Source: a phage
NCBI GenBank assembly: GCA_024613925.1
Contig: GCA_024613925.1_4713.1
DNA length: 64,000 nucleotides
Direction: 5' to 3' (one strand)
Positions 33,350 to 51,957 of the stretch are shown here, in pieces; position 1 is the stretch's first letter, and each line of letters opens with the position of its first letter. The notes under the pieces were generated by a model. It had not been told where the DNA came from. It made no database searches and was given only the letters and a program-made list of their open reading frames with translations. The position numbers and the translations under genes are program-made.

Positions 33350-33371
33350 GGTCCCCCTACAACAGGGGACC
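33350..33371 (-). terminator. hairpin ggtcccc-ctacaaca-ggggacc
   Basis: 7-bp stem after stop of 33378..34964. Confidence 0.45.
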
Positions 33372-33377
33372 TATGGA

Positions 33378-34964: not shown

Positions 34965-34965
34965 T

Positions 34966-36552: not shown

Positions 36553-36601
36553 AACAACCTCTTTTCGCGGTTCCCTGTTAAAACGTCTTCTGTGACGTCT
36601 A

Positions 36602-36626
36602 CCACAAAGGTAATATAAGCGTGAAT
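36602..36626 (-). promoter_or_regulatory. conserved promoter-like motif (variant ...GGTAATATAAGCGTGAAT on plus strand)
   Basis: Fourth copy of the 25-nt motif, 50 nt upstream of the revised start 36552. Confidence 0.4.
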
Positions 36627-36756
36627 AATTTTGGATTCCGGCTGAGTTATCGCTCAGCATGCAAGGCATCCCGCCGAAGCGAGACACCTTGCACTAACGG
36701 AAAATATTCGCGTTACCTTCTGAATCGGAGACTCAGAATGCGATGCTAAAGCATGA

Positions 36757-37545: not shown

Positions 37546-37618
37546 TTTCAGCCTCGTTACGTAGTGTGAATCAATTTCTGGTTCAGATGATAGTCAATAT
37601 TAGTTAAAAATTACAGCC

Positions 37619-38452
37619 TCAGCGGAACATGTCCAACAGAAAACGTTTTGCGAAGGGGTCACGTAACTGGTTGACACCAAAGCGTGTACGGTCTTCCGTT
37701 GTTAGTGGATTCCATTGACTCTGTTTCGCAAGATCTAATAGCATCCTTTTTATTTTCACCGGCCCACTGTTGAACTGTACGGCTTGGTCACCGAACGTTC
37801 CCAATGTCATCTTTGTAAATGGAAGGTTCGCAACCTCTGGACGATCCCCACCAGTAAGTTTGGTTGACCACTGATGTTTTCGTTTCAAAGTTCCGGTATG
37901 GCTTTCTACCAAAATAAGTTCACCAAAACCGGTTCTTGCCAACAAGTCAGAAACATAGTGCGTGGTGATATACGATGTCTTGGTTATCGCGGGTAATTTA
38001 CAATCCATCGATTCGATATTAGGGAGTCGATCTACAGACGCCATCAACCCACGATAAAGTGTAGCGAGTCCTTTTTGTTTTTCGGTGTGTGGCTCCTTAT
38101 GTATAGCGTGCGGATAAACACGCTTTATTGACGCATAGGTTGGCGCATATATCCGCAAGCGAATATGGGGAACGAGTTCATTCACCAGCTGCCTTAGCTG
38201 TAGTAACTCGTTTTGAAAATCCCCTGTTATCATCGATAATGGTAATTTATGTTGTTCAACGTCTTCAAAGCTTTCAACGAAATTGCGTGCTAAAGTACGC
38301 AGGTTGAACAACCAATCCATCGGTGTTTCTGGCTGTTGCTGTACGGCTGATAATGTTGCAGACGTACCTACCGATAAAGGATAATCACCTAACGTGCGGG
38401 CGTACATATTGCTCATACCCCACAACTCCTTCTTATCATGGCAACGTATCAA
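37619..38452 (-). CDS. hypothetical protein
   Basis: 277-aa ORF. Confidence 0.5.
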   Translation of the reverse strand: MIRCHDKKELWGMSNMYARTLGDYPLSVGTSATLSAVQQQPETPMDWLFNLRTLARNFVESFEDVEQHKLPLSMITGDFQNELLQLRQLVNELVPHIRLRIYAPTYASIKRVYPHAIHKEPHTEKQKGLATLYRGLMASVDRLPNIESMDCKLPAITKTSYITTHYVSDLLARTGFGELILVESHTGTLKRKHQWSTKLTGGDRPEVANLPFTKMTLGTFGDQAVQFNSGPVKIKRMLLDLAKQSQWNPLTTEDRTRFGVNQLRDPFAKRFLLDMFR

Positions 38453-39578
38453 GCCAAGCAGAAACCTTTAAGGCATCAACGTTCGGGTATTTGTTACGAA
38501 TGCGTTCGACCAACAAACGCTTAACGTTGTCCTTTGTCAAGTCTCCACCTTTCTCGATAACGTTATTGACAAAACTGTTCTTTAATAGCGACTGGTTGTT
38601 CTTGGCGTCCGTTTTAATTGACCAGACAAAACCTGGATACAAAGAAGGGATAGAACGAAACGTTTTCGCCGCATCGTCTTCCTTATCACAGCGTATTCGG
38701 ATATGATCACCCTTCTTCAATGGAGCCAATTCCCGTTCCAACACGCGAATGATTTCATCTCCAACAAGACCATGCAGTTTTATCGTCTTGTAGACATCTG
38801 CTTTCTTGTTTTCAACAAATTCCCACTGGTCGTTAAACGTTTCCGTTAACATATAACGGAGGTATCCCTTCGGACCTTCTTCGCCGTGCGCCAAGCGACC
38901 AAATGAACCGCCAACCATGATACGTCCTTTCTGGGATTGTAAGTGGATATGTCCGCTCACAATCCATCCCTGGGTCTTCTCCACCATTGCGTTATACGCA
39001 TCGCTGCTATGAACACATGTTGCTTTTAACGCTTCTGGTGGAAGTTGATATTCAAACGCACCGTGCATCAGAATAAAGTCCGGCGATCCCTTCTCATCAA
39101 TAAGTCGGTTCACGGCCGACAACGTCACATCCGGGTCGTGGCTGTAGTTATCTGGAAGATAAAGTACTTTTAAACCAAAGTCTTCATCAACCATGCAGAG
39201 GTCATCGTAATAACGAACTTTCGCTCCTATCTCCATGACCTCGTTCTGTTCAACGAACCACTGACTTTGCTTCTGGTCGTGTAAATTGGTACCCTCAAGA
39301 AAGATCAATGTAATATCGTGTTTTCTCGCATACCGTAACAACCAGGTACCCCAGGCACGAACAGCAACCACGTCACTCGTCACAAATGTCGTAATACGAT
39401 CGAAGACATCGCCGCTGAACGTAATCACATCAAGCAGCGCAGGATCTTCTTTTGTAATGTAGTAACGTAGCTGACTAATCAGGTTTACTGTCGGCGTTTG
39501 ACGATGGATAAAGTGAATATCCGACAAGTTGATTCCACGTAATACCCCAGGCGTTTTATTTCGACTGAAGTCTCGCAT
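38436..39578 (-). CDS. Mre11/SbcD-like metallophosphoesterase
   Basis: 380 aa; ordered motifs LSDIHF, FSGDVFDR, GTNLHD, LMHGAFE, SGHIHLQ. Confidence 0.55.
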   Translation of the reverse strand: MRDFSRNKTPGVLRGINLSDIHFIHRQTPTVNLISQLRYYITKEDPALLDVITFSGDVFDRITTFVTSDVVAVRAWGTWLLRYARKHDITLIFLEGTNLHDQKQSQWFVEQNEVMEIGAKVRYYDDLCMVDEDFGLKVLYLPDNYSHDPDVTLSAVNRLIDEKGSPDFILMHGAFEYQLPPEALKATCVHSSDAYNAMVEKTQGWIVSGHIHLQSQKGRIMVGGSFGRLAHGEEGPKGYLRYMLTETFNDQWEFVENKKADVYKTIKLHGLVGDEIIRVLERELAPLKKGDHIRIRCDKEDDAAKTFRSIPSLYPGFVWSIKTDAKNNQSLLKNSFVNNVIEKGGDLTKDNVKRLLVERIRNKYPNVDALKVSAWLDTLP

Positions 39579-40360
39579 CAGAATTCCTCTAAGTTGCTGC
39601 TGCTAATAGTCCCCGTCGTAGACGGCACGTTTCTACTGCTTGCCGACGCTGTTGTTGAAGAAGTTCTGGCCAGATTCAATCCGTTTAATAACCCACGCTC
39701 TTTTACCGTACGACGTGAACCATCACGAACGTCGTAAAGGGGTACGTTATAATGGTCAAAAATCCGAAGCCATTGCACGTAATCAGCGACAACATGGTCT
39801 TTGCTTTCATTCGGGGCAAAGCGATCAAGCTGGTGGTCGACGTAAGCTTTAGCGCTTTCAGGATTGAAGTTATACTGTCGACGTGCTTTGTCCACCATCG
39901 CGAGGAAACATGTATTGGGGTCACGATTGATGTATGAACGCGTCCTGATAAAGATAGCCGGTACCGTAAACAGAACCTTGTTGTTATTCCCATCAGCAAC
40001 AATGTTAACGGCACGATGCGGTTGACCTGCTATCTTGCACCAATCGTGAACAATGGTACTGTTACTCAGCATCTCCGCGTATTCAGGATCCTGCGAAAAC
40101 ATTCCTGCGAACGGATACAAGAAATGTTTAACAAACAGCGATTCAGGCAGAATGTTGGGACGCGTCATCTCCTGTAAACCTTTTCGTAGAAGCTCGCTGT
40201 TGTCTACCAGCTCCTGCCACATATCCGGTCTTGTTTTCGGGATGGACGGGTCCTGAGCACGACGAATGCGTTCTTCTTCATTTACAACCACTACCCCAGC
40301 CGGATACCCCAATAAATCCGTTCCTTCGCTAACGTTGCTGTTAGTTTGGCGCGCCTTCAT
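39578..40360 (-). CDS. hypothetical protein
   Basis: 260-aa ORF. Confidence 0.5.
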   Translation of the reverse strand: MKARQTNSNVSEGTDLLGYPAGVVVVNEEERIRRAQDPSIPKTRPDMWQELVDNSELLRKGLQEMTRPNILPESLFVKHFLYPFAGMFSQDPEYAEMLSNSTIVHDWCKIAGQPHRAVNIVADGNNNKVLFTVPAIFIRTRSYINRDPNTCFLAMVDKARRQYNFNPESAKAYVDHQLDRFAPNESKDHVVADYVQWLRIFDHYNVPLYDVRDGSRRTVKERGLLNGLNLARTSSTTASASSRNVPSTTGTISSSNLEEF

Positions 40361-40748
40361 TTACTTCCTCCTGCCACTTGATAAAATTACCACGCTCGGA
40401 TCGCAGAACACCACCCAGATCGTACGATATACCTTTCTCTGTGACAATCCCACCAATCTGGAGATCGACACGTTCCGTCGTCGGATCGATATACTTGACA
40501 CGGACTTTCAATTCCACGCGATCGTAATAACGCATTAAATAATCATACAGCATCCGGTACGTCGCATCTTCCAATTTGGGTGCGCTATACTGCGATGTTG
40601 CAATGAGGTACGGTAGTGAAACGATAGAGCCTTGATAGCAATACGACTGGGAATAATTCGATATTGCGAAATTGGTCATTAACCCATCCAACTTTTTACC
40701 CGACGCGGTTAAAAAGCTCGACAGCCCAGGTAACGGATTCGATGCCAT
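40341..40748 (-). CDS. hypothetical protein
   Basis: 135-aa ORF. Confidence 0.5.
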   Translation of the reverse strand: MASNPLPGLSSFLTASGKKLDGLMTNFAISNYSQSYCYQGSIVSLPYLIATSQYSAPKLEDATYRMLYDYLMRYYDRVELKVRVKYIDPTTERVDLQIGGIVTEKGISYDLGGVLRSERGNFIKWQEEVNEGAPN

Positions 40749-40761
40749 GAGGAACTCCTCT

Positions 40762-41235
40762 TTAAGCGTAATTCATTCCAACCAATCTATCGTAGTTAGG
40801 CATATGCCCTAACTCCAGTTCGACGGGCATGGATACATTGGTGCGTGGTGCGTAAAATGTTCGCGTATGCATATCGATATACCCACAGTCCAAATAAACA
40901 ATATTGGACAACTCCGCTGGATGTTTAGGTGCGGGAATCTTTAGTCGATTATAACACTCAAGCTGCCACCAGGCATGAAAAAAGTTATTGTAGGCGTACG
41001 ATTTACTGTTGGCAACTTTAAGTCCGTAGATCACCCATAACGCCGCCATGAAGTTGGTTGCGTTAATTCGCATCGGTTGTTCATTATTGAGCATGTACGT
41101 GTAGGTAAACAACGGTGTGTTACCATCACCGAAACGCCCGACTAAGGTATTGTTCGTGTGTTCGACCTCGAAGGAAAAATGCTGGCTGCTATTGCCATCA
41201 AAATGGATCATTCCGTTCTCCTCAAGCTTTTTCAT
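40762..41235 (-). CDS. hypothetical protein
   Basis: Track ORF 40762..41301; start moved to Met23 (MKKLEENG...) because upstream codons are the 41290..41319 hairpin. Confidence 0.5.
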   Translation of the reverse strand: MKKLEENGMIHFDGNSSQHFSFEVEHTNNTLVGRFGDGNTPLFTYTYMLNNEQPMRINATNFMAALWVIYGLKVANSKSYAYNNFFHAWWQLECYNRLKIPAPKHPAELSNIVYLDCGYIDMHTRTFYAPRTNVSMPVELELGHMPNYDRLVGMNYA

Positions 41236-41289
41236 TTCATAGAGTGGTGGAAATTCGTAGAAAGTTACAAAAATAAAAAAGAATGGGCA

Positions 41290-41319
41290 GCCTCTCCCCA
41301 CCCGAAGGTAGGGAGAGGC
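41290..41319 (-). terminator. hairpin gcctctccc / gggagaggc
   Basis: 9-bp stem, 12-nt loop, 12 nt after stop of 41331..41816. Confidence 0.5.
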
Positions 41320-41330
41320 CGCAAATATAT

Positions 41331-41816
41331 TTAAACCAAAGCTGCGATAACGTCGTTAACATTGCGGCCTCGCAACTCTGCCGCTAAACGAATAACTTCA
41401 TCCAGGGAACGGTTTGTACGAATCTTGGCCACTTTCCAATTTTCAGGATACTGTTCGAAGTTAAGCAACCAAGTCATTACCTTTGCTTGTTCCATACCGT
41501 TGAGTTTGATTGTCGTACGCGGATTGGCTTTGAACCACTTCTTGCTCAGCTGTGCCATACGGCGAACAGGGTAAGCGTAAGCGCGAGTCCAGTCTTTAGA
41601 CAGATTGTCGAGTAATTCACAGTAGCTGCTGTCGTAGTCTTTGTTGATACGACGTAATAACCAGTTGGCGGTCATCTGATAAAGTTTATCATCTTCGCGT
41701 AACCGCATACCTGCTACTGCTAAATAAATGATAAGACCTGCGCCCAGGATGAGAGACAGGATAAACAGAATTTGGGTTTCTTGTGCTAAAGTCATTTTAC
41801 TATCCTCGGATTTCAT
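41331..41816 (-). CDS. membrane protein (single N-terminal TM helix)
   Basis: 161 aa; ILFILSLILGAGLIIYLAVAG hydrophobic segment near N-terminus. Confidence 0.5.
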   Translation of the reverse strand: MKSEDSKMTLAQETQILFILSLILGAGLIIYLAVAGMRLREDDKLYQMTANWLLRRINKDYDSSYCELLDNLSKDWTRAYAYPVRRMAQLSKKWFKANPRTTIKLNGMEQAKVMTWLLNFEQYPENWKVAKIRTNRSLDEVIRLAAELRGRNVNDVIAALV

Positions 41817-41880
41817 TAGGATTTAATTTCCAATATAAGGACTATGTGATATGCCTTATACAGTCGATTGATGTTGTACA

Positions 41881-41905
41881 TCACCTAAGTAATATAGCCG
41901 TGAAA
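41881..41905 (-). promoter_or_regulatory. conserved promoter-like motif (minus-strand reading TTTCACGGCTATATTACTTAGGTGA)
   Basis: 65 nt upstream of start of 41331..41816. Confidence 0.45.
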
Positions 41906-41914
41906 AATGTTGGA

Positions 41915-42712
41915 TTAACGTGTTCTCCTATCCCGATGCGTATACGACTGAAGACCGATGTCCATATGCGGTAACGTTAGCGTCTGCCAGATCTGTCGTG
42001 CGTAGCGATCAAGCGTATGATCGTCAGTAACACAATCGACGGGTTCGATGAGGTGAGTCGTATACTGGCTTTTCTCAGAGAAAGGTTCGAGGTTAGCTGT
42101 ATCTCCTAATCCGCTTTTCACCGTGAAGACAAGACGTGTGACTATCATCGCTTTATGTTGCTGTTCATTATAACGAAGGCTGCGGTATACTGCATAGCTC
42201 CCTCCTTTTAAGCTTCGGGTATAACGAAGGTCGGAGGTCGTCTCGGAAATCTGATACAGCATCCAATCCAACGTATCTCGCCAGTACGCATCATCCACAT
42301 CAGGAACCGTAATACCGTACCGCGTAGGCAGCAATTCTAAAAGCAATTTATAAAGTCCGCGACGCAAGCCATGCTCTTCTGTTTCCGACAAGCCGTTTCC
42401 AACGTAACGTGAAATACGTGTACGTAAATACGTACGGATGAACATATTCGCCATCAGTGTTTTCACTCTGCTACTGGTATCCTCAAAGCGATCAACGCTG
42501 AAACTCGTTTCAATCAACCGTCCATTAAAATACAATGCGGCAACATACATCGCGTTATTACTATCACGTTCAATGTTTAAACGGCCGCAGATATTGGCTG
42601 CGTCGTTCATGGTAAATTCTAATTTATCGTGTTCGATACGATAGATAATATCCTCTTGGGTTGCTAGGCTCGCAATGCGACGATAGCCCGGAGAAGTACG
42701 TTTTACACTCAT
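41915..42712 (-). CDS. hypothetical protein
   Basis: Track ORF 41915..42751; start moved to Met14 (GAGGA 5 nt upstream) to clear the hairpin. Confidence 0.5.
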   Translation of the reverse strand: MSVKRTSPGYRRIASLATQEDIIYRIEHDKLEFTMNDAANICGRLNIERDSNNAMYVAALYFNGRLIETSFSVDRFEDTSSRVKTLMANMFIRTYLRTRISRYVGNGLSETEEHGLRRGLYKLLLELLPTRYGITVPDVDDAYWRDTLDWMLYQISETTSDLRYTRSLKGGSYAVYRSLRYNEQQHKAMIVTRLVFTVKSGLGDTANLEPFSEKSQYTTHLIEPVDCVTDDHTLDRYARQIWQTLTLPHMDIGLQSYTHRDRRTR

Positions 42713-42754
42713 GATTGTCCTCGTTTTCAATTTTAAGATTGCATGCGGCATAAA

Positions 42755-42779
42755 CCCTCCCCGCCTTATGCAGGGAGGG
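42755..42779 (-). terminator. hairpin ccctccc / gggaggg
   Basis: 7-bp stem after stop of 42795..43433. Confidence 0.5.
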
Positions 42780-42794
42780 TAGCCATTAAATGGA

Positions 42795-43433
42795 TTAACC
42801 TAATTTACCACCGGCGATATTGGTGAAATCTTCGCCATCAGGAACTTGCAGTAGGATACGTGCCATGTCCCAGTTGGTTAGTGTGATTGCTTTATCATCG
42901 ATACTCAGTTCTGGTAGGTCGAGTTCATGATCATCAAACTCGTAGGAAATACTCCACGTTTCGTCTGTTTTAGGATCGGTTATCAACACACCGTCTGTTA
43001 CACGCATGTAGTCCGGATGCAGTTCATTACTGAACGTGCTGAACGGATCGGTGTAACATTCAGCATACCCCTCGATCTGCTGACGTTGTGCCTTCGTACG
43101 TAATTCAGGGCACGCCATGATCAGTTGTCGAGATATACCGTTTGCCGCACGGAAGTCTTCCACGGTGATACATGGCATAACCACATCGTCATGGAAGATG
43201 TTCTCCGATTGTCTCAACAGCGTCTTACGGAGTTCAGCATAGTTTATCTGATTGAACGCATCGAACGTTGCTAACGATTCAGCGTAAAAATGCTTTACGT
43301 GTTCGCTTGCGCCGCCGAGGCTATTCATCAGCTTGTGGCCGTACTCCATAAAGCTTTTATCGAGACCGGAGGACATTTCTCCGAACCTCAGTGCACGATA
43401 ACTGTCTCGTCCACCTGTAAATATTTGCGCCAT
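42795..43433 (-). CDS. hypothetical protein (possibly a further RNAP beta-prime segment)
   Basis: 212 aa; AAGGAGG 10 nt upstream of its ATG, overlapping the stop of the 43449..43694 exon; homology to beta-prime not demonstrable by eye. Confidence 0.5.
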   Translation of the reverse strand: MAQIFTGGRDSYRALRFGEMSSGLDKSFMEYGHKLMNSLGGASEHVKHFYAESLATFDAFNQINYAELRKTLLRQSENIFHDDVVMPCITVEDFRAANGISRQLIMACPELRTKAQRQQIEGYAECYTDPFSTFSNELHPDYMRVTDGVLITDPKTDETWSISYEFDDHELDLPELSIDDKAITLTNWDMARILLQVPDGEDFTNIAGGKLG

Positions 43434-43448
43434 TACAGGCGTCCTCCT

Positions 43449-43694
43449 TTAGCAATGGTTGTTAGTTGCTTCTATTTCGTCAAGATACGGTTCTACGTCA
43501 TCGCCCTCCACGAATTCGTTGAACCAACAGTCAATGGTAGAAATAACCGGCGACTGGTGTTCACATTTCTTAGATACCTTAAAAGGTACGTTATTATCCA
43601 TCATACCGAGTTCGGGTCGAAAACGCCCGAAATGTTTCGCAGTCCAAATATCTGGGACGATATGGTTGTTCATCGTAGTGTTCAGCATGAGTCG
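43449..43694 (-). CDS. RNA polymerase beta-prime N-fragment, exon 3 (or separately translated 79-aa segment from ATG 43688)
   Basis: Reading from 43694: RLMLNTTMNNHIVPD resembles E. coli beta-prime ARALMMSTNNILSPAN, directly downstream of NADFDGD in the alignment. Begins CGAC after G43695. Confidence 0.5.
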   Translation of the reverse strand, partial: RLMLNTTMNNHIVPDIWTAKHFGRFRPELGMMDNNVPFKVSKKCEHQSPVISTIDCWFNEFVEGDDVEPYLDEIEATNNHC

Positions 43695-44028
43695 CTACCT
43701 CATACCCGCAGCTTTACCTGCAGCTTCCGGTGTTACCGGAATGACCAGAATACATCTTATCCATATTCCAAATGGAACGTAGGACTTCCGCGCTGGATCT
43801 CGCTTGAGACCACGTATTCGTTGAACGTTCTCCTGAACGGAGCTTCGCTGCTGATCGAACATTGTCACGTACGGTAGGCGTCCCCGAAGGGATTGTCATT
43901 GAAGCCGCGTACATCCGCTACCTTGTTTCTACCTTATCGGTTCCTCTTACGAGGCGTAGCGGCCTTAGCCCTTCCCAGCAATTCACGGAATCCAAGCTCT
44001 TCCTTTCGGAAGGCAGGGCCTATGATTA
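43695..44028 (-). ncRNA. group I intron-like core, copy 2
   Basis: Minus-strand P (AATTGCTGGGAAG, 43983..43971), Q (GATCAGCAGC, 43856..43847), R (GTTCAACGAATACG, 43826..43813), S (AAGATGTATTCTGG, 43758..43745). P4 and P7 pairings hold with compensatory changes relative to copy 1. No ORF on coding strand. No IGS identified for its 5' junction. Confidence 0.5.
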
Positions 44029-44041
44029 AGCGTCACCGTCG
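44029..44041 (-). CDS. micro-exon CGACGGTGACGCT encoding the catalytic D-G-D of beta-prime
   Basis: Only GAYGGNGAY in the 725-nt interruption; follows G44042; joins exon 1 (...AAC GCA GAT TT) in frame to give NADFDGDA; CGACGGU is complementary 7/7 to ACCGUCG at 44375..44369 (P10). Confidence 0.55.
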
Positions 44042-44419
44042 CTGTTTATCGACTATATCTTCATCCTCGTTGCGAGGAGTCTCCCGTTTTGGTCTGTGTT
44101 TAACAGAGCCTACTCTACTCGACATCGCGTCTTTCGATAGTCTGTGAGCACACATCTTAACGAACATTCGTGGATTCCTAAACAGGTGAATGTTCTTGTT
44201 GAGATGCTTCGCTGCGGATTATTCCCGTCCTACCTCTTTTACCATATCCAGTTCATTACGCTGGCCCTCATCTGTGTCACCACGATGAGTTGGTGTGTAG
44301 TCCGATTACAGAAACTTCCCGTCAATTAGAGAGTTTTAACTATGTTCCTGTTACCAGAAACCAGATCCCGACGGTATCAATAAATCAACGTAAGTTATTG
44401 AATTTATTGAAAAAAACTG
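44042..44419 (-). ncRNA. group I intron, copy 1
   Basis: Minus-strand P (AATTGACGGGAAG, 44327..44315), Q (AATCCGCAGC, 44220..44211), R (GCTCACAGACTATCG, 44149..44135), S (AAGATATAGTCG, 44061..44050) match the classical consensus elements from memory. IGS GGAUCUG (44368..44362) pairs with exon-1 end CAGAUUU with U-G at the splice site; ends with G44042. Confidence 0.7.
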
Positions 44420-45675
44420 AAATCTGCGTTATAACCTTTGAGGATCATCACGCTTAACCCGATGGTGTTATCCTGCGGATCGCGTTTAACCTTGGTGATT
44501 TCAAGACATTGGTTACTGCTTCGGTCAAGTGATGGGTTTCGAACAAAACCACACACAATCCCATCGAACGGTGTATCAGCAATAAGCTCATCGTGCAGCT
44601 CGCTCATCATCGGATGATAATTACGGACATGTTCCGCAACGAACGCACGTGCTGCTCTCGGTGAATACCCACGATGGAATAGCTTGGATTGGATATGTTC
44701 TTTATTGGTTAAAGTAAATGGTGCGTATGGGAAATGCAGATGATAATAACGATGGTTCGCTGTTATCGAACTGATTACGGTACGCGTGGTGAATGGATGT
44801 AATGTACCTAATATGTTTTTACGTGTGATACCTTTCTTCTTACCGATGAACTCATCGAAAATCGCCGCATGGTATTGCAGCAGCTTCAATTGCACTTTCG
44901 CCATCCAGTTTTCTTTCTTTCTGGCGCTCAAAGGTGTTGTTGGATGATAGATGCTATTCAACGTACCGATAGCATCGATCGCACCTTCCATTTTGCTATC
45001 CGCATAACGACCGGTTGGCGTATTCTCGATAACGAACATCATGGCCGCAGGAAAGCTGATATACTGGCTGAAGAACTTATCACGATGGATACGGATGAAT
45101 TCTCGTAGTGTGTCAACTTTCTCCGTGTTCTTCGGTCCACGTAACGTCGGTCCTTTATACAAGATCTCCATGATGCGATCGAAGTTCTGTATAAAACTAT
45201 TTACGCCACGACGTATCCCGAATACATCGAATTGCTGCTCCAGATAGTTCTTGAGTTCGATGGGTCGTTTTACATTTGGACGGTAACTGGCATCAATGAG
45301 CCACGTCATCGTTTCAAAGCTTTTGATATTCAACTCGCTTGCCAGCACGAGATGGACCAACGGGTTAATGAACGCATCGATTCCTTCAGGAACGCGCGCC
45401 CAAACCGTCGAACGAATCTCTTGTTCTGCTGGGTAGGTTACAACCGTTTTACAGTTTGGACACACCGTGCCGAGCAGCTCACCACGATTGTAGAAACCAC
45501 AACCACATTGTGGTGTGATATCCAACGTATCGCTGGAGTAAACACGGGTGATAAAACTGTTTAATTTCTTCTTCTCTTCGACGACTTTTGTATCGTAATC
45601 GTTCAACAAAATCGGCGTAAAAGGAAGTTCTGCGAGCTGTCTATCGAAACTCACGATATCGAGCATGATGGCCAT
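44420..45675 (-). CDS. RNA polymerase beta-prime N-terminal fragment, exon 1
   Basis: GKKKGITRKNILGTLHPFTTRTVI resembles E. coli [31 protein letters not shown] resembles LNRAPTLHR; unspliced ORF ends ...GYNADF then SFFQ-stop, i.e. inside NADFDGD. N-terminal C-x-C...C-x-x-C zinc motif. AGGAGA upstream of ATG 45675. Confidence 0.7.
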
Positions 45676-45717
45676 GGGGTATCTCCTACAAATGAAAAAG
45701 AACGTTAGGACGTATAA

Positions 45718-45741
45718 GGGAGGGAGGTTGCCCTCCCTCCC
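45718..45741 (-). terminator. hairpin gggagggagg-ttgc-cctccctccc
   Basis: 10-bp perfect stem after stop of 45768..47663. Confidence 0.55.
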
Positions 45742-45767
45742 GTCAGATTACATCGAACGTTCTTCCA

Positions 45768-47663
45768 TTAGAACAGGTTGAATGCCCCACCCATGTTGTT
45801 ACCGCCAACATTCGGACGATCGCTACGTGCGTAGATGTTGCCGGAGATGTTACCCAGACCACGAGCACGTGCTGCCATGTTACCACGAACAGCGGTACCT
45901 GCCAGGTGCTGGATGTTCTCAGGACGGATGGTGAAGCCAGCATCAGCCGCAGCTTCGATCAGCGCCTGCAGTGCTAACGGATCGAAGTCGTAACGCATTG
46001 CCCAGCCGGTTTGTTCCCAGCTACCAGACAGAACACGATCAATGATTTCGTGACGAGCGACAACACGCTGAGACATCGTCATATCGGTACGGTCGAAGCT
46101 GTCTTCCCAAGCTTCTACGGTATCCGGGTTAGTGATGTTCATCATGTACAGATCGTCCATATCACGAATATCGTGACGGTGACCATCCTGGTGGTTGTAG
46201 TAACCCAGCGGGATACGGTTACCGGTAGCGTAGACCAGCGGTTGGCCGTATTGATATTTCTTGCTGAAGCAACCCAGGGTAGTATCATCGAAGGCACGGT
46301 AGAGTGCTTTGTAACCTTCGGAGATTTCTTGAACTTTACCGTCAACGTTGCCCGTAAAGATCTTCTCAGCCGCCGGGATCATACGCAGCAGCCAGCTATA
46401 CTCGCCTTCTTCCGGTACGTCGATAGAAATCAGCAGAGACGGATACAGAACCTGTTGCAGGAACTTGTAAATCTGCTCGTTGGTTTGCGTAGACAGATCC
46501 AGCGGTGCAGTCACTTCAGGATCCAGCACCATCGCCAGAGCACCTGGGTTATGCGGACCAATACCACGAGCCGCGTTGCTGATTAAAGACTGTGCCCATG
46601 CCATGCCGCTGTTCAGCGTAGCGATGGTACCAATCAGACCCAGCACGAAGCTGTTCGGTGTGAACGCATCCAGCTCCAGCGGGTAAACGCTGGTCATCAC
46701 GTAACGCGGCTGGTACTGTACAGTCGGCGGTACCGGATAGCCGTTAACCAGAACAGGGCCTTGGTTGAAGGTCGGGTTCTGCGGGCTGTAGGTCAGGTCA
46801 ATGTAACCGGTGGTGGCGACCAGACGCTGTTGACTATCGTAATCGCTCATCGCTTGACGGATGCGGTTAGAGATAGTTACAGTGATGTCAGAACGCACAG
46901 GGTTACCAACAATATCGCTGTCCTGCATACCGCTGGTGTTGTACTGAACGCTGCTGATTGGCTGATCGCTTGCCATCATGCCCAGGTTGAACTGCGGCAG
47001 ACCCAGTTTATCACCGAGACGGATTTCGATCGCGGTTTGGATTGCGTTATCTGCAGCAGACAGCAGGGTGGTTGCCAGATGCGCAGATTCAGCGGTGATT
47101 TCATTGGTCACCACAGCCAGACCAGCGATACGAACAGTACCGTTAGACTTACCGCCAATAGCTGAATACATTGCCGCCATGACTTCGTTGATGAACGTAC
47201 CGTTCAGGTTATCAACCCAGGTACGCGGTACCAGAATGTTACCATGCGGACCTTGTTCTTCACGACGCGGCAGCGGAGCCAGACCAGCAACCAGCGGCAG
47301 GACGTAACCGAAGAAGTGGTTATGATCACCAACTTTTGCACCGCTCATAACAACCAGGGTCGGATACGGTACGCTGTACTGGTTCGGGTCAACCGCAACA
47401 AAGATGAAGTCGTCTTTGAACTGGGTATCTTCCAGATATTTCTCCATCAGACGACGGAGATTCAGTACCTGCTCGGAGCCGGTATTACGGCTGATACGAC
47501 GGCTCAGTGTACGGTTGATCGTACGCATCGTATGAGTTACTTTAGGACGGTCGGCAAAATCTGCAGCGGTTTCCAGCGCCTCATCAGCACGTTGTGCGGT
47601 GCGGGTTTCAGCTGCACGAATTTCTACATTATCGTTACCGTTATTACGTACGTCTAAGCCCAT
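45768..47663 (-). CDS. abundant structural/shell-type protein; candidate chimallin (phage-nucleus shell), alternatively a virion protein
   Basis: 631 aa; lies immediately upstream of the beta-prime N gene, which I recall is the chimallin/nvRNAP arrangement in phiKZ; own promoter motif and strong hairpin. No sequence-level confirmation possible here. Confidence 0.3.
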   Translation of the reverse strand: MGLDVRNNGNDNVEIRAAETRTAQRADEALETAADFADRPKVTHTMRTINRTLSRRISRNTGSEQVLNLRRLMEKYLEDTQFKDDFIFVAVDPNQYSVPYPTLVVMSGAKVGDHNHFFGYVLPLVAGLAPLPRREEQGPHGNILVPRTWVDNLNGTFINEVMAAMYSAIGGKSNGTVRIAGLAVVTNEITAESAHLATTLLSAADNAIQTAIEIRLGDKLGLPQFNLGMMASDQPISSVQYNTSGMQDSDIVGNPVRSDITVTISNRIRQAMSDYDSQQRLVATTGYIDLTYSPQNPTFNQGPVLVNGYPVPPTVQYQPRYVMTSVYPLELDAFTPNSFVLGLIGTIATLNSGMAWAQSLISNAARGIGPHNPGALAMVLDPEVTAPLDLSTQTNEQIYKFLQQVLYPSLLISIDVPEEGEYSWLLRMIPAAEKIFTGNVDGKVQEISEGYKALYRAFDDTTLGCFSKKYQYGQPLVYATGNRIPLGYYNHQDGHRHDIRDMDDLYMMNITNPDTVEAWEDSFDRTDMTMSQRVVARHEIIDRVLSGSWEQTGWAMRYDFDPLALQALIEAAADAGFTIRPENIQHLAGTAVRGNMAARARGLGNISGNIYARSDRPNVGGNNMGGAFNLF

Positions 47664-47693
47664 TTGGGATTCCTCTTTTCTTAAACTTTATTA

Positions 47694-47705
47694 AATGACG
47701 TCATT
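47694..47705. promoter_or_regulatory. perfect palindrome AATGACGTCATT
   Basis: Second copy (first at 18677..18688); about 30 nt upstream of ATG 47663 on minus strand. Confidence 0.35.
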
Positions 47706-47727
47706 GAATCAGCTTCTACTCGCTCAT

Positions 47728-47752
47728 TCACCTAGGTAATATAACCCTGAAA
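47728..47752 (-). promoter_or_regulatory. conserved promoter-like motif (minus-strand reading TTTCAGGGTTATATTACCTAGGTGA)
   Basis: 65 nt upstream of start of 45768..47663. Confidence 0.45.
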
Positions 47753-47917
47753 TTTTTTTCAATATTGGTGTAACCACATTGAACGATATAAACCCCTAGG
47801 CGAACGCTGCCGAGAAGCAACATTCTTTCTACATATAATCAGGATATGTCTGTAAACTTTTACTTCTCTTATTGAGAGTAATGTCATATCCGTTTATTAC
47901 CTTCTTACGGAGTTCGT

Positions 47918-49012
47918 ATGTTTCGTGTTTTAAATAACCTCCCGCGAACATCATCGGGTGTGCAACCCGTCCCTCAGAAAGACTATCTAATACGCGAAGT
48001 TCAAAGAAACCTACAGACAATCCAGAACCACTATCAAGGTTTTACCTTCGCGGTTCAGAGCGATCACATCCTTGCGTTGCTGCTCGCACAGCTCCCTATG
48101 AGATACGACATCTCAGTACAAACTTACTACGACATGATTCTCGATCTTACCCCAGAATTGGGTAATCGTGTCAAGTTGACAACATCAAGATACGCGGGTA
48201 AGTTATTCGACGGTGCTTTCTATCCGGGATTGCACGAAGCTATTATCGCAACCGGTGAAAGTCGTCTTATTTCACGTGACATTCTTGACAACTGGCGTAA
48301 TTGGTCGCCGGTTAGAATCGTGACGCACCCGTACGCAAATCTTCGTTACATTCCTCTTCACCGAAAGCCGGTTGAAGAAGGACGAGGTTTTGCGGTCATT
48401 ATGGTTGATGTACCTTTATTAGCGCTACAGTATCGAATGTGGTCTTTGGTCATGGGTCATAACGTCGACGGTAAATGGGTGGTTAAAGAACCGGTTACAA
48501 GCTTCCTTGCGAGTTTTCCGTTGGTTAACGCATTATACTCACACAACGATGTTGTTATACGCAATCGTTGTTTATGGGTATCTCCGGCTAAGAATCCACT
48601 CAAATCACCCATTTACGTTAACGACCTTGATAACGTATTCAGCCAAGTCGTTCTGTCCGTACAGCATCATTTATTACGCAGAAGACGAAGCTACACCGAC
48701 ATGCTTAAACAGATACCGAGTTTATACGGGGATCAGTACCAAGCAACCCGAATGGGTTACACCGTCGATCTTCGACAAACACGATGGGCAAGGGATCTGG
48801 GTTGTCTGTCATTATGGCAACAACTCGTCACATTGCAAAACGTATCTGAAAGCGTCGGGTTCAGCAGTCAAGTCGATAATGACCTGTACCGTGCTGCCGA
48901 CCGGAGTCTAAAAGAAGGTAACTGGGAATCCTCTCCGTTACCTGGTGATTTAAGACGTGAAGTTATCGCACAGGTTGCCGACCTCTTAAAAATTCTTCCT
49001 GCTGGTGCATAA
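47918..49012 (+). CDS. hypothetical protein
   Basis: 364-aa ORF; TTTATTAC about 20 nt upstream of ATG. Confidence 0.55.
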   Translation: MFRVLNNLPRTSSGVQPVPQKDYLIREVQRNLQTIQNHYQGFTFAVQSDHILALLLAQLPMRYDISVQTYYDMILDLTPELGNRVKLTTSRYAGKLFDGAFYPGLHEAIIATGESRLISRDILDNWRNWSPVRIVTHPYANLRYIPLHRKPVEEGRGFAVIMVDVPLLALQYRMWSLVMGHNVDGKWVVKEPVTSFLASFPLVNALYSHNDVVIRNRCLWVSPAKNPLKSPIYVNDLDNVFSQVVLSVQHHLLRRRRSYTDMLKQIPSLYGDQYQATRMGYTVDLRQTRWARDLGCLSLWQQLVTLQNVSESVGFSSQVDNDLYRAADRSLKEGNWESSPLPGDLRREVIAQVADLLKILPAGA

Positions 49013-49031
49013 TCACCTCCCTCTTCCCTCG

Positions 49032-49063
49032 CATCCTCCCAACCCGTAAGGGAAGGGAGGATG
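49032..49063. terminator. hairpin catcctccc / gggaggatg between convergent genes
   Basis: 9-bp stem, 14-nt loop. Confidence 0.5.
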
Positions 49064-49078
49064 GGGTGGTGGATTATG

Positions 49079-51232
49079 TTACTCTGCGGTTTCTCGCTTC
49101 GGTAAATAACTTGCTGCGATGTCTTGGGCTAACAATGTATTGTTTTTATTCGAGATGAAAATACCGTAACTTTCCATTAACGCGTAATACGAACGAACGA
49201 GCGTAGAGATCAATCGACGAATATCCATACCTTGAATAAAGATATCAGGAAGCCCGGAGGCTTCGATCACCGGTAATGGTATCGTTAAGTTGCTTATCGT
49301 TTTCTTATCGTTACGTACAATCCAATCACGGAAACGTTGTTGTAACCCTTTATCCTCCCAGGAATCAATCCAATCGTTAAGAAGCGTTTTGTTCTTCGTC
49401 GCCAACGGCACACGAACCCCAACATAGGGTGGTTCCTGGCAATGGCCGTACGATTGAGCAAACACCTCTTCCCACATATCGTAAGACTGTTTCGTTACCG
49501 CAACATGTGGTTTCACTTTAACACGTGTTAAGAAATCAGGATCACCACGTTTCATGGACTCAACGATTTCGTTTTCTAACGAGATAATATCGTCAAGAAC
49601 CAATCGAATGCTGATCTTCTCATTACGTAACAGCTTATCCATGATACCGCACATCATGCGTTCAACACGTTTGACGATCATTTTTGGTGCTGACGCATCA
49701 CGCATAACCGGACCTTTCAATTCCAGCTTCGGTGGATTGATAGGAACCCCTTCACGCATGGTCATGTAACCGTAATAGTTTTTACCCATCGAGGTTAACG
49801 ACAGAATCAAGAACATATATTCGTTCTTCATTTCCATCACGTACATATGCTCTTTCGCTACACCGATATTACCAGAACACATCGCCATCAGATGAACCGT
49901 AATCTGCGTAACCAGATAGATAAGCGTGTTTGCTAAGCGCGTCGAAACTGGATTGATCTCCATATTTCCAAATCGCCACTGAACCCACTCCTGGCAGGTA
50001 AACACCGTCGAGTCGGTATCAGACAACACGCCCACTTCACGGATTGCCGACGGAAAAGCATAAACGCCAGCCGGTTGGTTCTCGGTACGCCAGAACGCCA
50101 TAATCAAGTCAGCATAACTTTGGATGCGTTGCAGCATTAATTTTGTTGTTGCTGCGGTAAGACGATAACCAAGCTCATTTCCTTTTTCTAGCGCTACGTA
50201 AATCGCTTCCCCATTCAAGAACTCCGTGCATTGTGCTGTAATCCAAGCGACCGTGTTGTTATCCATGGAAGCAATAATGGCTTTAGCCTCTTCCATCGTT
50301 TCAACAGGTTCGGATGCCAGCTCACACAACGAGTCAAGAAAATCTCGAACAAATTCAGGATTAAGCTCACGTAACGAGTACAGGTTATTGCTGTACATGT
50401 AGCAGGCGCGTTCCAACGGCGTTAAACCGGTAATTAACTCCCGGATAGTCAGTTCTTTCTCTGGGTCGAAAGTATACCGATGTAAGCATTTCGATACGTT
50501 AGCCCAAACCTCTTCCGGCGTAGGGTAATGCAGTTTGTATTTTACCATTACCTGCTCAATGGCTTTACGATCGCTGTTACGGACGATGCTTACGATGTTT
50601 TCAATTGCGATATCACAATCGTAATAATGGAAATTGCCCGCAAGGAAGCGTTCGTTGTTCGCATTGGCTGAACCTGAAGCACAGCGACATGTTGTCGTTA
50701 GACTCGGATGCGCAATCGGATTATAAAAAGGGTTGAACTTGGACGCCTGGGTTCCTGACAAACTGTTGTTGTCTAACTTGGTGTTGGTTTGTCGTTTATC
50801 GTGTAGCTCCGCTTCGTCTTTACGTCCGTGTGCTTGCGCTATCGACATTTGTTTCTTTTGTTTCTTACGCAACTTACCGTTTTCAACCGCAAAGTCGCTT
50901 AGCACACTGGAACGTGTTTCACGTGGATAACAGTTAGCCCACACCGGCGTGATAATTAAATTATTTTCTTTAATATCGTTGAAGTATTGGCTGAACTTGA
51001 TGACTTCTTTTTCTCGATTTCCTTCGGTACGCTGCGTTAGTACAAGGCAGTCGGGATCAACCATCCCGTATTTTCCACCAGGACGAACCGTTTCAAGAAC
51101 AAACTGCAACGCTTCCTGCTGAGATATCCCACGCATGCGCATTAAGAACAGGGTATAATCCTGTACCGCTTCTTTGGTCATATCCAACGTACGACCATAT
51201 CCGTTTTCATCGTAAAAGAACGGATTTTCCAT
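49079..51232 (-). CDS. polymerase-like protein (family B DNA polymerase-type motifs B and C), no exonuclease domain
   Basis: 717 aa; TKLMLQRIQSY (cf. phi29 KLMLNSLYG) followed by GVLSDTDS (cf. YGDTDS). GGAGGA upstream of ATG. Function is tentative. Confidence 0.4.
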   Translation of the reverse strand: MENPFFYDENGYGRTLDMTKEAVQDYTLFLMRMRGISQQEALQFVLETVRPGGKYGMVDPDCLVLTQRTEGNREKEVIKFSQYFNDIKENNLIITPVWANCYPRETRSSVLSDFAVENGKLRKKQKKQMSIAQAHGRKDEAELHDKRQTNTKLDNNSLSGTQASKFNPFYNPIAHPSLTTTCRCASGSANANNERFLAGNFHYYDCDIAIENIVSIVRNSDRKAIEQVMVKYKLHYPTPEEVWANVSKCLHRYTFDPEKELTIRELITGLTPLERACYMYSNNLYSLRELNPEFVRDFLDSLCELASEPVETMEEAKAIIASMDNNTVAWITAQCTEFLNGEAIYVALEKGNELGYRLTAATTKLMLQRIQSYADLIMAFWRTENQPAGVYAFPSAIREVGVLSDTDSTVFTCQEWVQWRFGNMEINPVSTRLANTLIYLVTQITVHLMAMCSGNIGVAKEHMYVMEMKNEYMFLILSLTSMGKNYYGYMTMREGVPINPPKLELKGPVMRDASAPKMIVKRVERMMCGIMDKLLRNEKISIRLVLDDIISLENEIVESMKRGDPDFLTRVKVKPHVAVTKQSYDMWEEVFAQSYGHCQEPPYVGVRVPLATKNKTLLNDWIDSWEDKGLQQRFRDWIVRNDKKTISNLTIPLPVIEASGLPDIFIQGMDIRRLISTLVRSYYALMESYGIFISNKNNTLLAQDIAASYLPKRETAE

Positions 51233-51532
51233 AAATCCTCCAAAAGTTATTTAGTCTGTCTACATCATCTCGTATATCTGTTAAAAAAGAAGGACGGCAT
51301 AAAAAAGAACCGATCCAGCCGAAGCCAGATCGGTTAAAAAAGGATAATAACTGACAGAAAGATATCGATGATGTTCGTGAAACAAGATCTTCTCTCGTGC
51401 ACAATGATGCTAGATCAGAGGGAGGTTGTAACACGAGAGGCGATTCGCCAAAGAAGGAATAAAAAACACGAATCTATCTTATTTCACTGATGGCACTAAC
51501 CACTCAAAATATATAGTACTGTATGTAAAAGT

Positions 51533-51946: not shown

Positions 51947-51957
51947 AATAGCATCCT

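What the first reader, a model, noticed from the sequence alone, without database searches (positions are those of the whole stretch)
43695..44028. Second intron core is a diverged copy with compensatory changes; it is unclear whether it splices or marks a split site
Copy 2 keeps P4 and P7 complementarity through paired changes (P4 UUGCUG/CAGCAG versus UUGACGG/CCGCAG in copy 1; P7 GAAUAC/GUAUUC versus GACUAU/AUAGUC). Model A: it splices after GCU (44029) to C43694, giving NADFDGD-A-RLMLNTT... in frame, with A-R matching E. coli ...EARALMM. Model B: translation stops at TAA 44028..44026 right after DGDA, and a separate polypeptide starts at ATG 43688 (GAGGT 8 nt upstream). I could not find a guide sequence for a copy-2 5' splice site, which weakens model A.
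Basis: inference. Interest (0 to 1): 0.7.

Follow-up and report, generated by a model that had tools for sequence, protein, structure and literature searches.

The report
Second intron in phage RNA polymerase

Summary
The window comes from a phage 98% identical to E. coli jumbo phage Goslar. On the minus strand, the gene after chimallin encodes the N-terminal beta' subunit of the non-virion RNA polymerase (phiKZ gp55 homologue).

Two introns split its NADFDGD motif:
- Intron 1 is 44419..44042.
- A 13-nt micro-exon (44041..44029) encodes (F)DGDA.
- Intron 2 is 44028..43674 (355 nt).

**Intron 2 is a genuine group I intron.**
- Twelve family copies support P1-P9.2: 99.6% of cells are paired, and 35 of 93 pairs show compensatory changes, against 1-4 in slid controls.
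- Close relatives carry an empty site reading GAC GCN|ATG AAC.
- The predicted 497-aa joined protein exists letter for letter on two public contigs.
- All intact homologues, including the solved phiKZ gp55, read DGD-x-(M/L)N without a gap.

- The 5' splice site (after GCU 44029) is correct.
- The 3' splice site is wrong. It is G43674|A43673, not 43695|43694.
- The split-gene model is not supported.
- A guide sequence exists: GGC in a 5-bp P1 hairpin, plus a 4-bp P10.
- Intron 2 is not a copy of intron 1.

Related phages show four insertion sites within 26 nt, with introns assorting almost freely. Splicing itself was not observed.

The parts
44420..45675 (-). Exon 1 of the nvRNAP beta'-N gene (phiKZ gp55 homologue). 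It encodes M1 through NAD plus the first 2 nt of the Phe419 codon and ends ...GCAGAUUU.
   Evidence: ORF list. Homology to PDB 7OGP chain A, E 1e-74. Exon end defined by the intron-1-less alleles L004, L196 and L202.
44042..44419 (-). Intron 1 (378 nt, group I, no ORF here). Goslar carries a 1065-nt HNH/NUMOD1 insertion between window 44046 and 44043.
   Evidence: RF00028 at 44.6 bits, E 7.6e-10, full-length model match. Comparison with Goslar.
44362..44373 (-). Guide sequence of intron 1. CGUCG (44373..44369) forms P10 with micro-exon CGACG. GGAUCUG (44368..44362) forms P1 with exon CAGAUUU (44426..44420).
   Evidence: Read from the sequence. It covaries with the exon: Goslar has exon CCGACUU paired with guide GAGUCGG.
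44029..44041 (-). 13-nt micro-exon CGACGGUGACGCU. It completes the Phe codon and encodes D-G-D-A, the second and third catalytic Asp residues.
   Evidence: Contiguous with both flanking exons in intron-less alleles.
43674..44028 (-). Intron 2 (355 nt, group I, IA-like, no ORF, phase 0). This is the corrected extent of the finding.
   Evidence: Empty-site alleles. Covariation. Partial RF00028 hit. The joined 497-aa protein is present in the public collection.
44018..44031 (-). P1 hairpin GCU|UA-AUCA-UAGGC. The 5' splice site follows U44029, which pairs as U.G with G44020. The guide is GGC 44020..44018. UCAU 44025..44022 is the candidate P10 strand for exon AUGA 43673..43670.
   Evidence: Predicted independently by RNAalifold. 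Pair 3/12 changes U.G to C-G, pair 4/11 U-A to A-U, and pair 5/10 A-U to C-G.
43996..44014 (-). P2 hairpin (GCCUUCC GAAA GGAAGAGC).
   Evidence: 4 of 7 pairs have double changes.
43984..43990 (-). P3 5' strand UUCCGUG. It pairs with CGCGGAA 43792..43786.
   Evidence: Invariant but fully paired in 12 of 12 copies. Aligned to P3 of RF00028.
43849..43980 (-). P4 (UGCUGG 43980..43975 with UCAGCA 43854..43849) enclosing P5 and the branched P5a/P5b extension (43971..43857).
   Evidence: Several double changes in the P5a/P5b helices.
43825..43848 (-). P6/P6a hairpin.
   Evidence: 3 pairs with double changes.
43815..43819 (-). P7 5' strand GAAUA. It pairs with UAUUC 43752..43748 and crosses P3 as a pseudoknot. 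The G43819-C43748 pair is the presumed guanosine-binding pair.
   Evidence: 5 of 5 pairs kept in 12 copies. Two positions show three pair types (A-U, U-A, G-C and U-A, C-G).
43796..43811 (-). P7.1 hairpin between P7 and P3' (GGUCUC AAGC GAGAUC), a subgroup IA hallmark.
   Evidence: 6 of 6 pairs change on both sides between lineages.
43759..43785 (-). P8.
   Evidence: 2 of 4 outer pairs have double changes.
43685..43741 (-). P9 (43741..43725), P9.1 (43723..43706) and P9.2 (43705..43685).
   Evidence: P9.2 changes compensatorily in L004. The module is shared with many IMG/VR phage introns.
43674..43674 (-). Terminal G (omega G). The 3' splice site lies between G43674 and A43673.
   Evidence: G in all 12 copies. 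Junction fixed by the empty-site alleles.
43449..43673 (-). Exon 3: M424-C497 plus stop (MNNHIVPDIW...).
   Evidence: Aligns gap-free to homologues directly after DGD-x. The 79-aa ORF usually called here (43688..43449) begins 15 nt inside the intron.

Best explanation
Window 44028..43674 (minus strand) is an ORF-less, IA-like group I intron in phase 0. It sits between the Ala codon of NADFDGD-A and the following Met codon of the nvRNAP beta'-N gene of a Goslar-like chimallivirus.

**Mechanism (inferred from standard group I chemistry):**
- The pre-mRNA folds into the P1-P9.2 ribozyme.
- P1 (exon GCU paired with guide GGC, with U44029.G44020 at the cleavage site) presents the 5' splice site to an exogenous guanosine bound in P7.
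- After the first step, UCAU (44025..44022) can pair with exon AUGA as P10.
- The terminal G43674 then occupies the G site and the exons are ligated.

Together with intron 1 (44419..44042), this joins exon 1, the 13-nt micro-exon and exon 3 into one 497-aa subunit reading ...GYNADFDGDAMNNHIVPDIW...

**Shown:** the RNA structure and its covariation; the exact insertion boundaries; the existence of uninterrupted alleles or products with exactly the predicted sequence.

**Inferred:** that splicing is autocatalytic, and that it occurs in infected cells. The second is required because the catalytic subunit of an essential polymerase would otherwise be broken.

The intron probably spreads or persists by co-conversion with the HNH-bearing neighbouring introns rather than by an endonuclease of its own.
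For: 1. **Structure.** RNAalifold on 12 copies recovers P1, P2, P3, P4, P5 with extensions, P6, P7.1, P8, P9, P9.1 and P9.2. With P7 added, 93 pairs are 99.6% paired. 35 pairs change on both sides against 1-4 in slid controls, and 0 of 500 shuffles reach the observed score. Part of the core aligns to RF00028.
2. **Boundaries.**
   - Relatives at about 97% nucleotide identity have an empty site: L196-198 GACGGCGACGCA|ATGAAC, L202 GACGCG|ATGA, L214 and L219 GACGCT|ATGAAC.
   - Introns at sites 0, 1 and 2 occur in nearly all combinations.
3. **Product.**
   - The 497-aa protein obtained with these junctions is identical in the window, L004 and L005 despite their different intron sets.
   - It is present letter for letter in the 15-billion-protein collection as uninterrupted ORFs: P0058 is the window version and P0057 the Goslar version.
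4. **Homology.** 40 or more homologues read NADFDGD-x-(M/L)N. These include P0002 and P0003 (64% and 61% identity) on intron-less contigs and phiKZ gp55 in PDB 7OGP.
5. **Region between 43694 and 43674.** It evolves as RNA: P9.2 changes compensatorily, and the putative peptide is RLMLNTT in the window but RFVLKIL in L004.
6. **Intron 1.** Its guide sequence covaries with its exon between the window and Goslar, so the neighbouring junction and the micro-exon are real.
Against: - No RNA or protein data were seen, so splicing is inferred.
- The RF00028 score for intron 2 is far below the gathering score (16.7 against 50 bits) and covers only half the model.
- P1 has only three exon base pairs. 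An extended pairing I first considered (UGCC/GGUG) fails in alleles with exon GGGGAU.
- One copy (L004_B) has C-G instead of U.G at the splice site.
- The single-sequence folding energy is only modestly better than shuffles (z = -1.75).
- I could not fetch the contigs encoding the uninterrupted 497-aa proteins. They may be intron-free genomes rather than spliced RNA.
Confidence: 0.9

Rival explanations
1. Model B: the element marks a split site. Translation stops at TAA 44028..44026 after DGDA, and a separate 79-aa (or 74-aa) polypeptide starts at ATG 43688 (or ATG 43673). The polymerase would then assemble from one more fragment, as happens elsewhere in phiKZ-like RNAPs.
For: - There is a stop directly after DGDA, and GAGGT lies 8 nt before ATG 43688.
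- Gene callers and the Goslar RefSeq record annotate a 423-aa and a 79-aa protein.
- phiKZ-type polymerases are known to be built from split beta and beta' fragments (established knowledge; PDB 7OGP).
Against: - The stop and the start are not conserved. In L004 the frame after DGDA runs on for about 37 codons, and there is no ATG or GAGG before ATGAAC.
- ATG 43688 and the GAGG are both paired inside the P9.2 stem.
- The 355 nt between them is a covarying ribozyme fold.
- Close relatives and all intact homologues have one continuous gene across this point.
Confidence: 0.03
2. One reading: splicing joins 44029 to C43694 (terminal G at 43695), giving ...DGDA-RLMLNTT-MNNH..., a protein 7 residues longer.
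For: G43695 is a possible terminal G and the frame is kept.
Against: - No homologue has the 7-residue insert.
- Empty-site alleles join GCN directly to ATGAAC.
- The exact 497-aa (not 504-aa) protein is on record.
- In L004 the same stretch would read RFVLKIL, while the flanking exons are 100% conserved at protein level.
- This junction would cut through the loop of the covarying P9.2 hairpin.
Confidence: 0.03
3. Intron 2 is removed at 44029/43673 but is not an autonomous ribozyme. With its 3-bp exon pairing it may depend on a chaperone or maturase-like factor, or on prior or coupled folding of intron 1 only 13 nt upstream. Part of the transcripts may skip the micro-exon.
For: - P1 is short, and P10 is weak or offset in the site-A paralogue.
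- The folding z-score is modest.
- The RF00028 score is low.
- Exon skipping by closely spaced group I introns is reported for phage Twort (title of Landthaler and Shub 1999, cited; the paper itself was not readable here).
Against: - Haplotypes exist with intron 2 but without intron 1 (L004, L212). It therefore cannot depend on intron 1.
- All core helices and the joining segments J6/7 and J8/7 are conserved.
- A 3-nt guide is sufficient in the Azoarcus intron (my own knowledge).
Confidence: 0.12

Closest known systems
Intron 1 of the same gene, annotated in phage Goslar as Intron_gpI (NC_048170, HOV27_gs001) with an HNH/NUMOD1 endonuclease
   Same: Same gene and same catalytic motif, 13 nt away. 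Group I fold with P7.1. Shows presence/absence polymorphism among Goslar-like phages.
   Different: No significant overall sequence similarity (1.3 SD above shuffles). Intron 1 has a long P1 with a 7-bp guide, P7.1 plus P7.2, GACUA/UAGUC in P7, and an endonuclease ORF in its 3' tail in Goslar and L214. Intron 2 never carries an ORF in the copies seen and is not annotated in Goslar.
Introns A and B of relative L004 (IMGVR_UViG_3300011560_000001) and intron A of L196-198
   Same: Same intron lineage: B is about 86-92% identical and A about 72-78% identical to window intron 2. They share the P1 guide GGC and the same fold.
   Different: Intron A sits 18 nt upstream, after AAY GCU (N-A^D-F), not after GAC GCU. 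Its P1 loop differs (UCAAAUGA or UCAGAUGA against UAAUCAUA), and its P6, P7, P7.1 and P8 are rebuilt by compensatory changes.
Self-splicing introns in RNA polymerase genes of other nucleus-forming jumbo phages (PhiPA3 nvRNAP gp65-66; PhiPA3 vRNAP intron encoding endonuclease gp210)
   Same: Group I introns interrupting multisubunit RNAP genes of chimalliviruses, with a role in phage-phage competition shown for gp210 (PMC11077065; PMC11620839; review PMC12908238).
   Different: Different subunits and sites. Those reports describe single introns. Neither the Goslar beta'-N double intron nor its 13-nt micro-exon is mentioned in the papers I could search.
Multi-intron phage genes (Twort orf142 with three introns; Bastillevirinae DNA polymerase and terminase genes with two or three IA-type introns)
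   Same: Several group I introns, mostly IA, stacked in one conserved phage gene, some with and some without HNH endonucleases (PMC11878797).
   Different: Here four insertion sites fall within 26 nt, and up to three are occupied at once, leaving two 13-nt exons (L005). I could not check the exon sizes in the published cases.
Rfam RF00028 (Intron_gpI) consensus
   Same: J3/4-P4 (GAAUUGCUGG), P4' (AUCAGCAGC), P6, J6/7-P7 (GUUCAACGAAUA) and P3' align to model positions 50-157.
   Different: The score is 16.7 bits against a gathering score of 50. The 3' half (P8-P9.2) and P1-P2 are not matched, and there are large P5 insertions.

Membership tests
Group I intron | Conserved core helices P3-P8, with the P3/P7 pseudoknot, supported by covariation | tested here: met
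   93 pairs are 99.6% paired in 12 copies. 35 pairs have compensatory changes against 1-4 in slid controls. P7 is kept through A-U, U-A and G-C exchanges.
Group I intron | Score at or above the curated threshold of the Rfam model RF00028 | tested here: not met
   16.7 bits, E 0.17, half the model. Nothing at the gathering score anywhere in the window. Intron 1, which Goslar's record does annotate as a group I intron, also falls short (44.6 against 50), so the model is insensitive to these phage introns.
Group I intron | 5' splice site after a U that forms a U.G pair with an internal guide sequence in P1 | tested here: met
   U44029.G44020 lies in a 5-bp P1 hairpin. It is U.G in 11 of 12 copies and C-G in 1. 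The neighbouring pairs covary. Only 3 exon nucleotides are paired.
Group I intron | Terminal guanosine (omega G) at the 3' splice site | tested here: met
   G43674 immediately precedes exon ATGAAC. It is G in all 12 copies.
Group I intron | Precise removal restores an uninterrupted, conserved reading frame | tested here: met
   Empty-site alleles L196-198, L202, L214 and L219. The exact 497-aa product is on record. Gap-free alignment to phiKZ gp55.
Group I intron | Guanosine-dependent self-splicing in vitro or junction reads in vivo | not testable with these tools
   No RNA data were accessible. The Logan contigs encoding the joined protein could not be fetched.
Subgroup IA group I introns (typical of phages) | Extra helix or helices P7.1/P7.2 between P7 and P3' | tested here: met
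   One hairpin, 43811..43796, lies between P7 and P3', and all 6 of its pairs covary. Only P7.1 is evident, so the exact sub-type was not assigned.
Mobile intron with its own homing endonuclease | Endonuclease ORF (HNH, GIY-YIG or LAGLIDADG) inside the intron | tested here: not met
   The 355 nt hold only 57- and 66-aa unconserved ORFs. None of the 12 family copies is longer than 357 nt. HNH ORFs occur only in neighbouring introns 0 and 1.
   L004 has no stop after DGDA for about 37 codons, and no ATG or GAGG before ATGAAC. In the window, both the ATG and the GAGG are inside P9.2.
   phiKZ gp55 is one chain across DFDGDQLN in PDB 7OGP. 40 or more homologues are continuous.

The most novel reading that the evidence does not exclude
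The 26 nt encoding Y-N-A-D-F-D-G-D-A of the nvRNAP beta'-N gene may be a contested landing strip in Goslar-like phages.
- It has four insertion sites: U|AU of Tyr, after N-A, UU|C of Phe, and after DGDA.
- At least three intron lineages use these sites and assort almost freely among phages that are about 97% identical.
- The intron-2 lineage occupies two sites 18 nt apart, each after a GCU Ala codon. Its GGC guide is unchanged and only the P1 loop is rewritten.

This would be natural evidence for ectopic retargeting of a group I intron, by reverse splicing or illegitimate homing. ORF-less copies might persist because they hitch-hike on, or block, the HNH endonucleases of neighbouring introns. 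That would make intron content a determinant of competition between co-infecting nucleus-forming phages.
Probability: 0.35. Interest if true: 0.65.

Novelty: new member of a known kind. Interest (0 to 1): 0.45.

Why it matters
**Annotation.** In Goslar, a model nucleus-forming E. coli phage, and its relatives, the catalytic beta'-N subunit of the non-virion RNA polymerase is annotated as a truncated 423-aa protein plus a 79-aa hypothetical protein. The real product is most likely a 497-aa chain assembled from three exons, one only 13 nt long. Anyone expressing, knocking down or solving this polymerase needs the joined sequence.

**Biology.** The locus is a compact natural system in a tractable host: four insertion sites within 26 nt, up to three introns at once, and many haplotypes. 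It could be used to study intron competition, co-conversion and retargeting, following the finding that an intron endonuclease mediates competition between PhiPA3 and PhiKZ.

**Method.** The Rfam group I model misses these introns at its curated threshold.

Tried and rejected
- **Rfam.** At gathering threshold it found nothing in the window. A whole-window E-value scan found only intron 1.
- **Junction and similarity searches.**
  - The spliced-junction DNA had no match in complete E. coli genomes or plasmids.
  - A 'distant' search of the phage collection with intron 2 found only Goslar.
- **15-mer TTCCGTGAATTGCTG.** The 120 IMG/VR hits are mostly chance, as expected for 15 nt (my own estimate, roughly 100). 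Apart from the Goslar-like contigs (L022, L112), none of the 15-mer loci matched the intron by BLAST.
- **Extended P1.** I considered UGCC (44013..44010) pairing with exon GGUG. I rejected it because alleles with exon GGGGAU keep the same intron sequence, and those bases belong to P2.
- **Ala wobble base.** I considered that it tracks intron presence: U or C in 12 intron-bearing alleles, A or G in four empty ones. L214 and L219 have an empty site with GCT, so this is only a tendency.
- **'Copy of intron 1'.** The global alignment score is 1.3 SD above shuffles, which is not significant.
- **Literature.** I found no description of this second intron. The Twort paper could not be read.

Full report
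**Context**

Window 43400..45700 is 98.2% identical to Escherichia phage vB_EcoM_Goslar, a nucleus-forming jumbo phage. On the minus strand:
- The nuclear-shell (chimallin) gene lies at 47663..45768.
- It is followed by a gene annotated in RefSeq as a 423-aa 'RNA polymerase beta subunit'.
- Next come an 'Intron_gpI' ncRNA, an HNH endonuclease, and a 79-aa hypothetical protein.

The 423-aa ORF of the window ends ...GYNADF and then runs into non-coding sequence. The missing DGD of the universal NADFDGD catalytic motif lies 378 nt downstream.

**Check of the observation**

- P4 UGCUGG/UCAGCA and P7 GAAUA(C)/(G)UAUUC in the second element.
- The UUGACGG/CCGCAG and GACUAU/AUAGUC versions in the first element.
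- TAA directly after DGDA.
- ATG 43688 with GAGGT upstream.

Rfam finds nothing at its curated threshold. With permissive settings, intron 1 matches the full group I model at 44.6 bits (E 7.6e-10). The second element matches only model positions 50-157 at 16.7 bits (E 0.17). That alone would not be convincing.

**Where the exons are**

A protein search with the joined sequence returned 55 homologues. Every intact one reads NADFDGD-x-(M/L)N.... The closest are P0002 (64% identity...NADFDGDAMNHHSAPD...) and P0003 (61%...NADFDGDEMNNHIPPD...). Both are encoded without interruption next to chimallin.

The window reads ...DGDA, then 355 nt, then MNNHIVPD.... The proposed match to E. coli 'EARALMM' is therefore wrong. 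The correct correspondence is DGDQ-MAVH with DGDA-MNNH.

phiKZ gp55, the beta'-N subunit in the solved nvRNAP structure (PDB 7OGP chain A), aligns without a gap across this point (E 1e-74).

**Empty sites and haplotypes**

Scans of IMG/VR and metagenome contigs, and an exact look-up of the neighbouring 212-aa protein, gave many Goslar-like contigs (about 91-99% nucleotide identity in the exons). They differ in intron content at this spot.

| Source | Introns present |
|---|---|
| Window | intron 1 (no ORF) + intron 2 |
| Goslar | intron 1 with a 1065-nt HNH/NUMOD1 insertion + intron 2 |
| L005, L199, L200, L201, L203 | a third intron ('0', 367 nt, within the Tyr codon) + 1 + 2, leaving two 13-nt exons |
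| L212 | 0 + 2 |
| L004 | intron A (after N-A) + intron B (at the intron-2 site) |
| L196-198 | A only |
| L202 | 0 with an ORF only |
| L214, L219 | 1 with a 320-aa HNH only |

In L196-198, L202, L214 and L219 the intron-2 site is empty and reads GAC GCN|ATG AAC AAC. This fixes intron 2 as window 44028..43674, in phase 0, ending in G43674.

With these junctions, the joined protein is 497 aa. It is identical in the window, L004 and L005, and differs by one residue in Goslar. Both versions are present letter for letter as uninterrupted ORFs on Logan contigs of 1,864 and 8,818 nt (P0058, P0057). I could not retrieve those contigs. They may be intron-free genomes or assembled spliced RNA. Either way they confirm the junction.

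**RNA structure**

I aligned twelve distinct copies of the intron-2 lineage: seven at site 2, L004_B, and four site-A copies.
- RNAalifold, with no prior input, predicts a P1 hairpin, P2, P3, P4, P5 with a branched extension, P6, P7.1, P8, P9, P9.1 and P9.2.
- 33 of its 91 pairs are compensated.
- After adding P7 as a pseudoknot, 93 pairs are 99.6% paired.
- 35 pairs change on both sides, against 1-4 when partners are slid by 1-3 columns.
- None of 500 column shuffles reaches the observed covariation.
- P7 is GAAUA/UAUUC in the window, GAGUA/UACUC in L004_B and GAUCA/UGAUC in the A copies.

The single-sequence fold recovers most helices, but its energy is only modestly better than shuffles (z = -1.75).

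P1 is the hairpin GCU|UA-AUCA-UAGGC (44031..44018). The exon GCU pairs with GGC (44020..44018), with U44029.G44020 at the cleavage site. Two intron pairs stack on top.

Across the family:
- Pair 3/12 is U.G in eleven copies and C-G in one.
- Pair 4/11 switches U-A to A-U.
- Pair 5/10 switches A-U to C-G.

UCAU (44025..44022) can form P10 with AUGA at the start of exon 3. L004_B has CAU in the same place. A longer P1 that I first considered is not supported. Three exon base pairs is short. As far as I know it is what the Azoarcus intron uses.

For intron 1 the guide is unambiguous and covaries with the exon:
- The window has exon CAGAUUU with guide GGAUCUG.
- Goslar has exon CCGACUU with guide GAGUCGG.
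- In both, P10 pairs CGUCG with the micro-exon CGACG.

The 13-nt micro-exon is therefore flanked by two well-defined splice sites.

**Model B**

- The hairpin AUGAG-GUAGCGA-CUCAU becomes ACGAA-GUAGCGA-UUCGU in L004_B.
- The would-be peptide changes from RLMLNTT to RFVLKIL, while the flanking exons are 100% conserved.
- L004 has neither the ATG nor the GAGG, and no stop for about 37 codons after DGDA.

In the window, ATG 43688 and the GAGG lie inside the P9.2 stem. A split gene is therefore very unlikely.

**Relation to intron 1 and to other introns**

Intron 2 is not a diverged copy of intron 1. A global alignment scores only 1.3 SD above shuffles, and BLAST finds no similarity between them.

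Its relatives:
- L004_B (about 86-92% identity) and the site-A introns (about 72-78%).
- For its 3' half, introns in other large IMG/VR phage contigs. One of these lies in an RNAP beta (Rpb2 domain 6) gene and one in an AAA_5 gene.
- The P9-P9.2 tail is a module shared even with intron 0.

More distant chimalliviruses are interrupted in the same motif. L208 has an 87.8-bit group I intron plus an HNH gene after NADFD. Many metagenomic homologues are truncated after NAD, NADFD, NADFDG or NADFDGD.

**What is known**

Introns in RNAP genes of nucleus-forming phages are documented: PhiPA3 gp65-66 and the gp210 endonuclease intron. Multi-intron phage genes are also known. I found no description of the second Goslar intron or of the micro-exon. 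The Goslar records carry no feature for it.

**Verdict**

This is a real group I intron, a new and unannotated member of a known kind, with a corrected 3' boundary. The surrounding hot spot has four insertion sites in 26 nt, up to three introns at once, freely assorting haplotypes, and one lineage at two sites. It is the more interesting part and deserves experimental follow-up. Splicing itself remains inferred.

Noticed in passing
window 44043..44046; L001 4655..5719: Goslar has a 1065-nt insertion carrying a 336-aa HNH/NUMOD1 endonuclease in the 3' tail of intron 1. The window's intron 1 lacks it. L214 and L219 carry a different 320-aa HNH ORF at the same place.
   Followed up: partly
L005 5242..5608; L202 about 858..2240: A third intron ('intron 0', 367 nt, RF00028 30.3 bits) splits the Tyr codon of KG-Y-NADF in many relatives, giving two consecutive 13-nt exons. 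In L202 the same intron carries an ORF of about 300 aa. Read-through into it explains the 449-aa 'protein' P0001, which represents the 159-member cluster.
   Followed up: partly
L004 5253..5602 and 5621..5976: Two paralogous introns of the intron-2 lineage sit 18 nt apart in one gene. Their P9 and P9.1 and the tail CUGAAGAUA are identical to each other but differ from window intron 2. This suggests sequence exchange between the paralogues.
   Followed up: no
window 43685..43741; IMG/VR loci L128-L195: The 3' module CUGCAGGUAAWGCUGCGG plus a hairpin with loop GUAGCGA or UAACGA recurs in about 70 IMG/VR contigs, against roughly 7 expected by chance (my own estimate). BLAST confirms relatedness for about 20 of them. 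Its role is unknown; it could be a tertiary contact.
   Followed up: partly
window 1..64000: Rfam RF00028 misses both introns at its gathering score (44.6 and 16.7 bits against 50). Automated annotation of such phages will therefore under-call introns and split the host genes.
   Followed up: yes
L218 position 1: A 1,785-nt Logan contig begins exactly at the first base of exon 3 (ATGAACAACC). This is what an assembly-graph break at a polymorphic intron boundary would look like.
   Followed up: no
window 45715..45745 and about 42760..42795 (minus strand): There are GC-rich hairpins, seen by eye: GGGAGGGAGGG-CAAC-CUCCCUCCC just after the chimallin stop, and CCCUCCC...GGGGAGGG after the 212-aa ORF. 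They look like intrinsic terminators or RNA-stability elements flanking the polymerase gene.
   Followed up: no
L208 4248..4507; L205: Distant chimalliviruses have the beta'-N gene interrupted inside the same NADFDGD motif. In L208 the interruption is a strong group I intron (87.8 bits) followed by an HNH gene and an 80-aa terminal exon ORF. In L205 it is an HNH gene with no Rfam-detectable intron.
   Followed up: partly
cluster list: Goslar-like phage contigs of 236-244 kb are deposited within assemblies labelled E. coli, Salmonella, Shigella and Enterobacter. The 79-aa ORF is on 389 contigs. These phages are therefore common passengers in enterobacterial sequencing projects.
   Followed up: no
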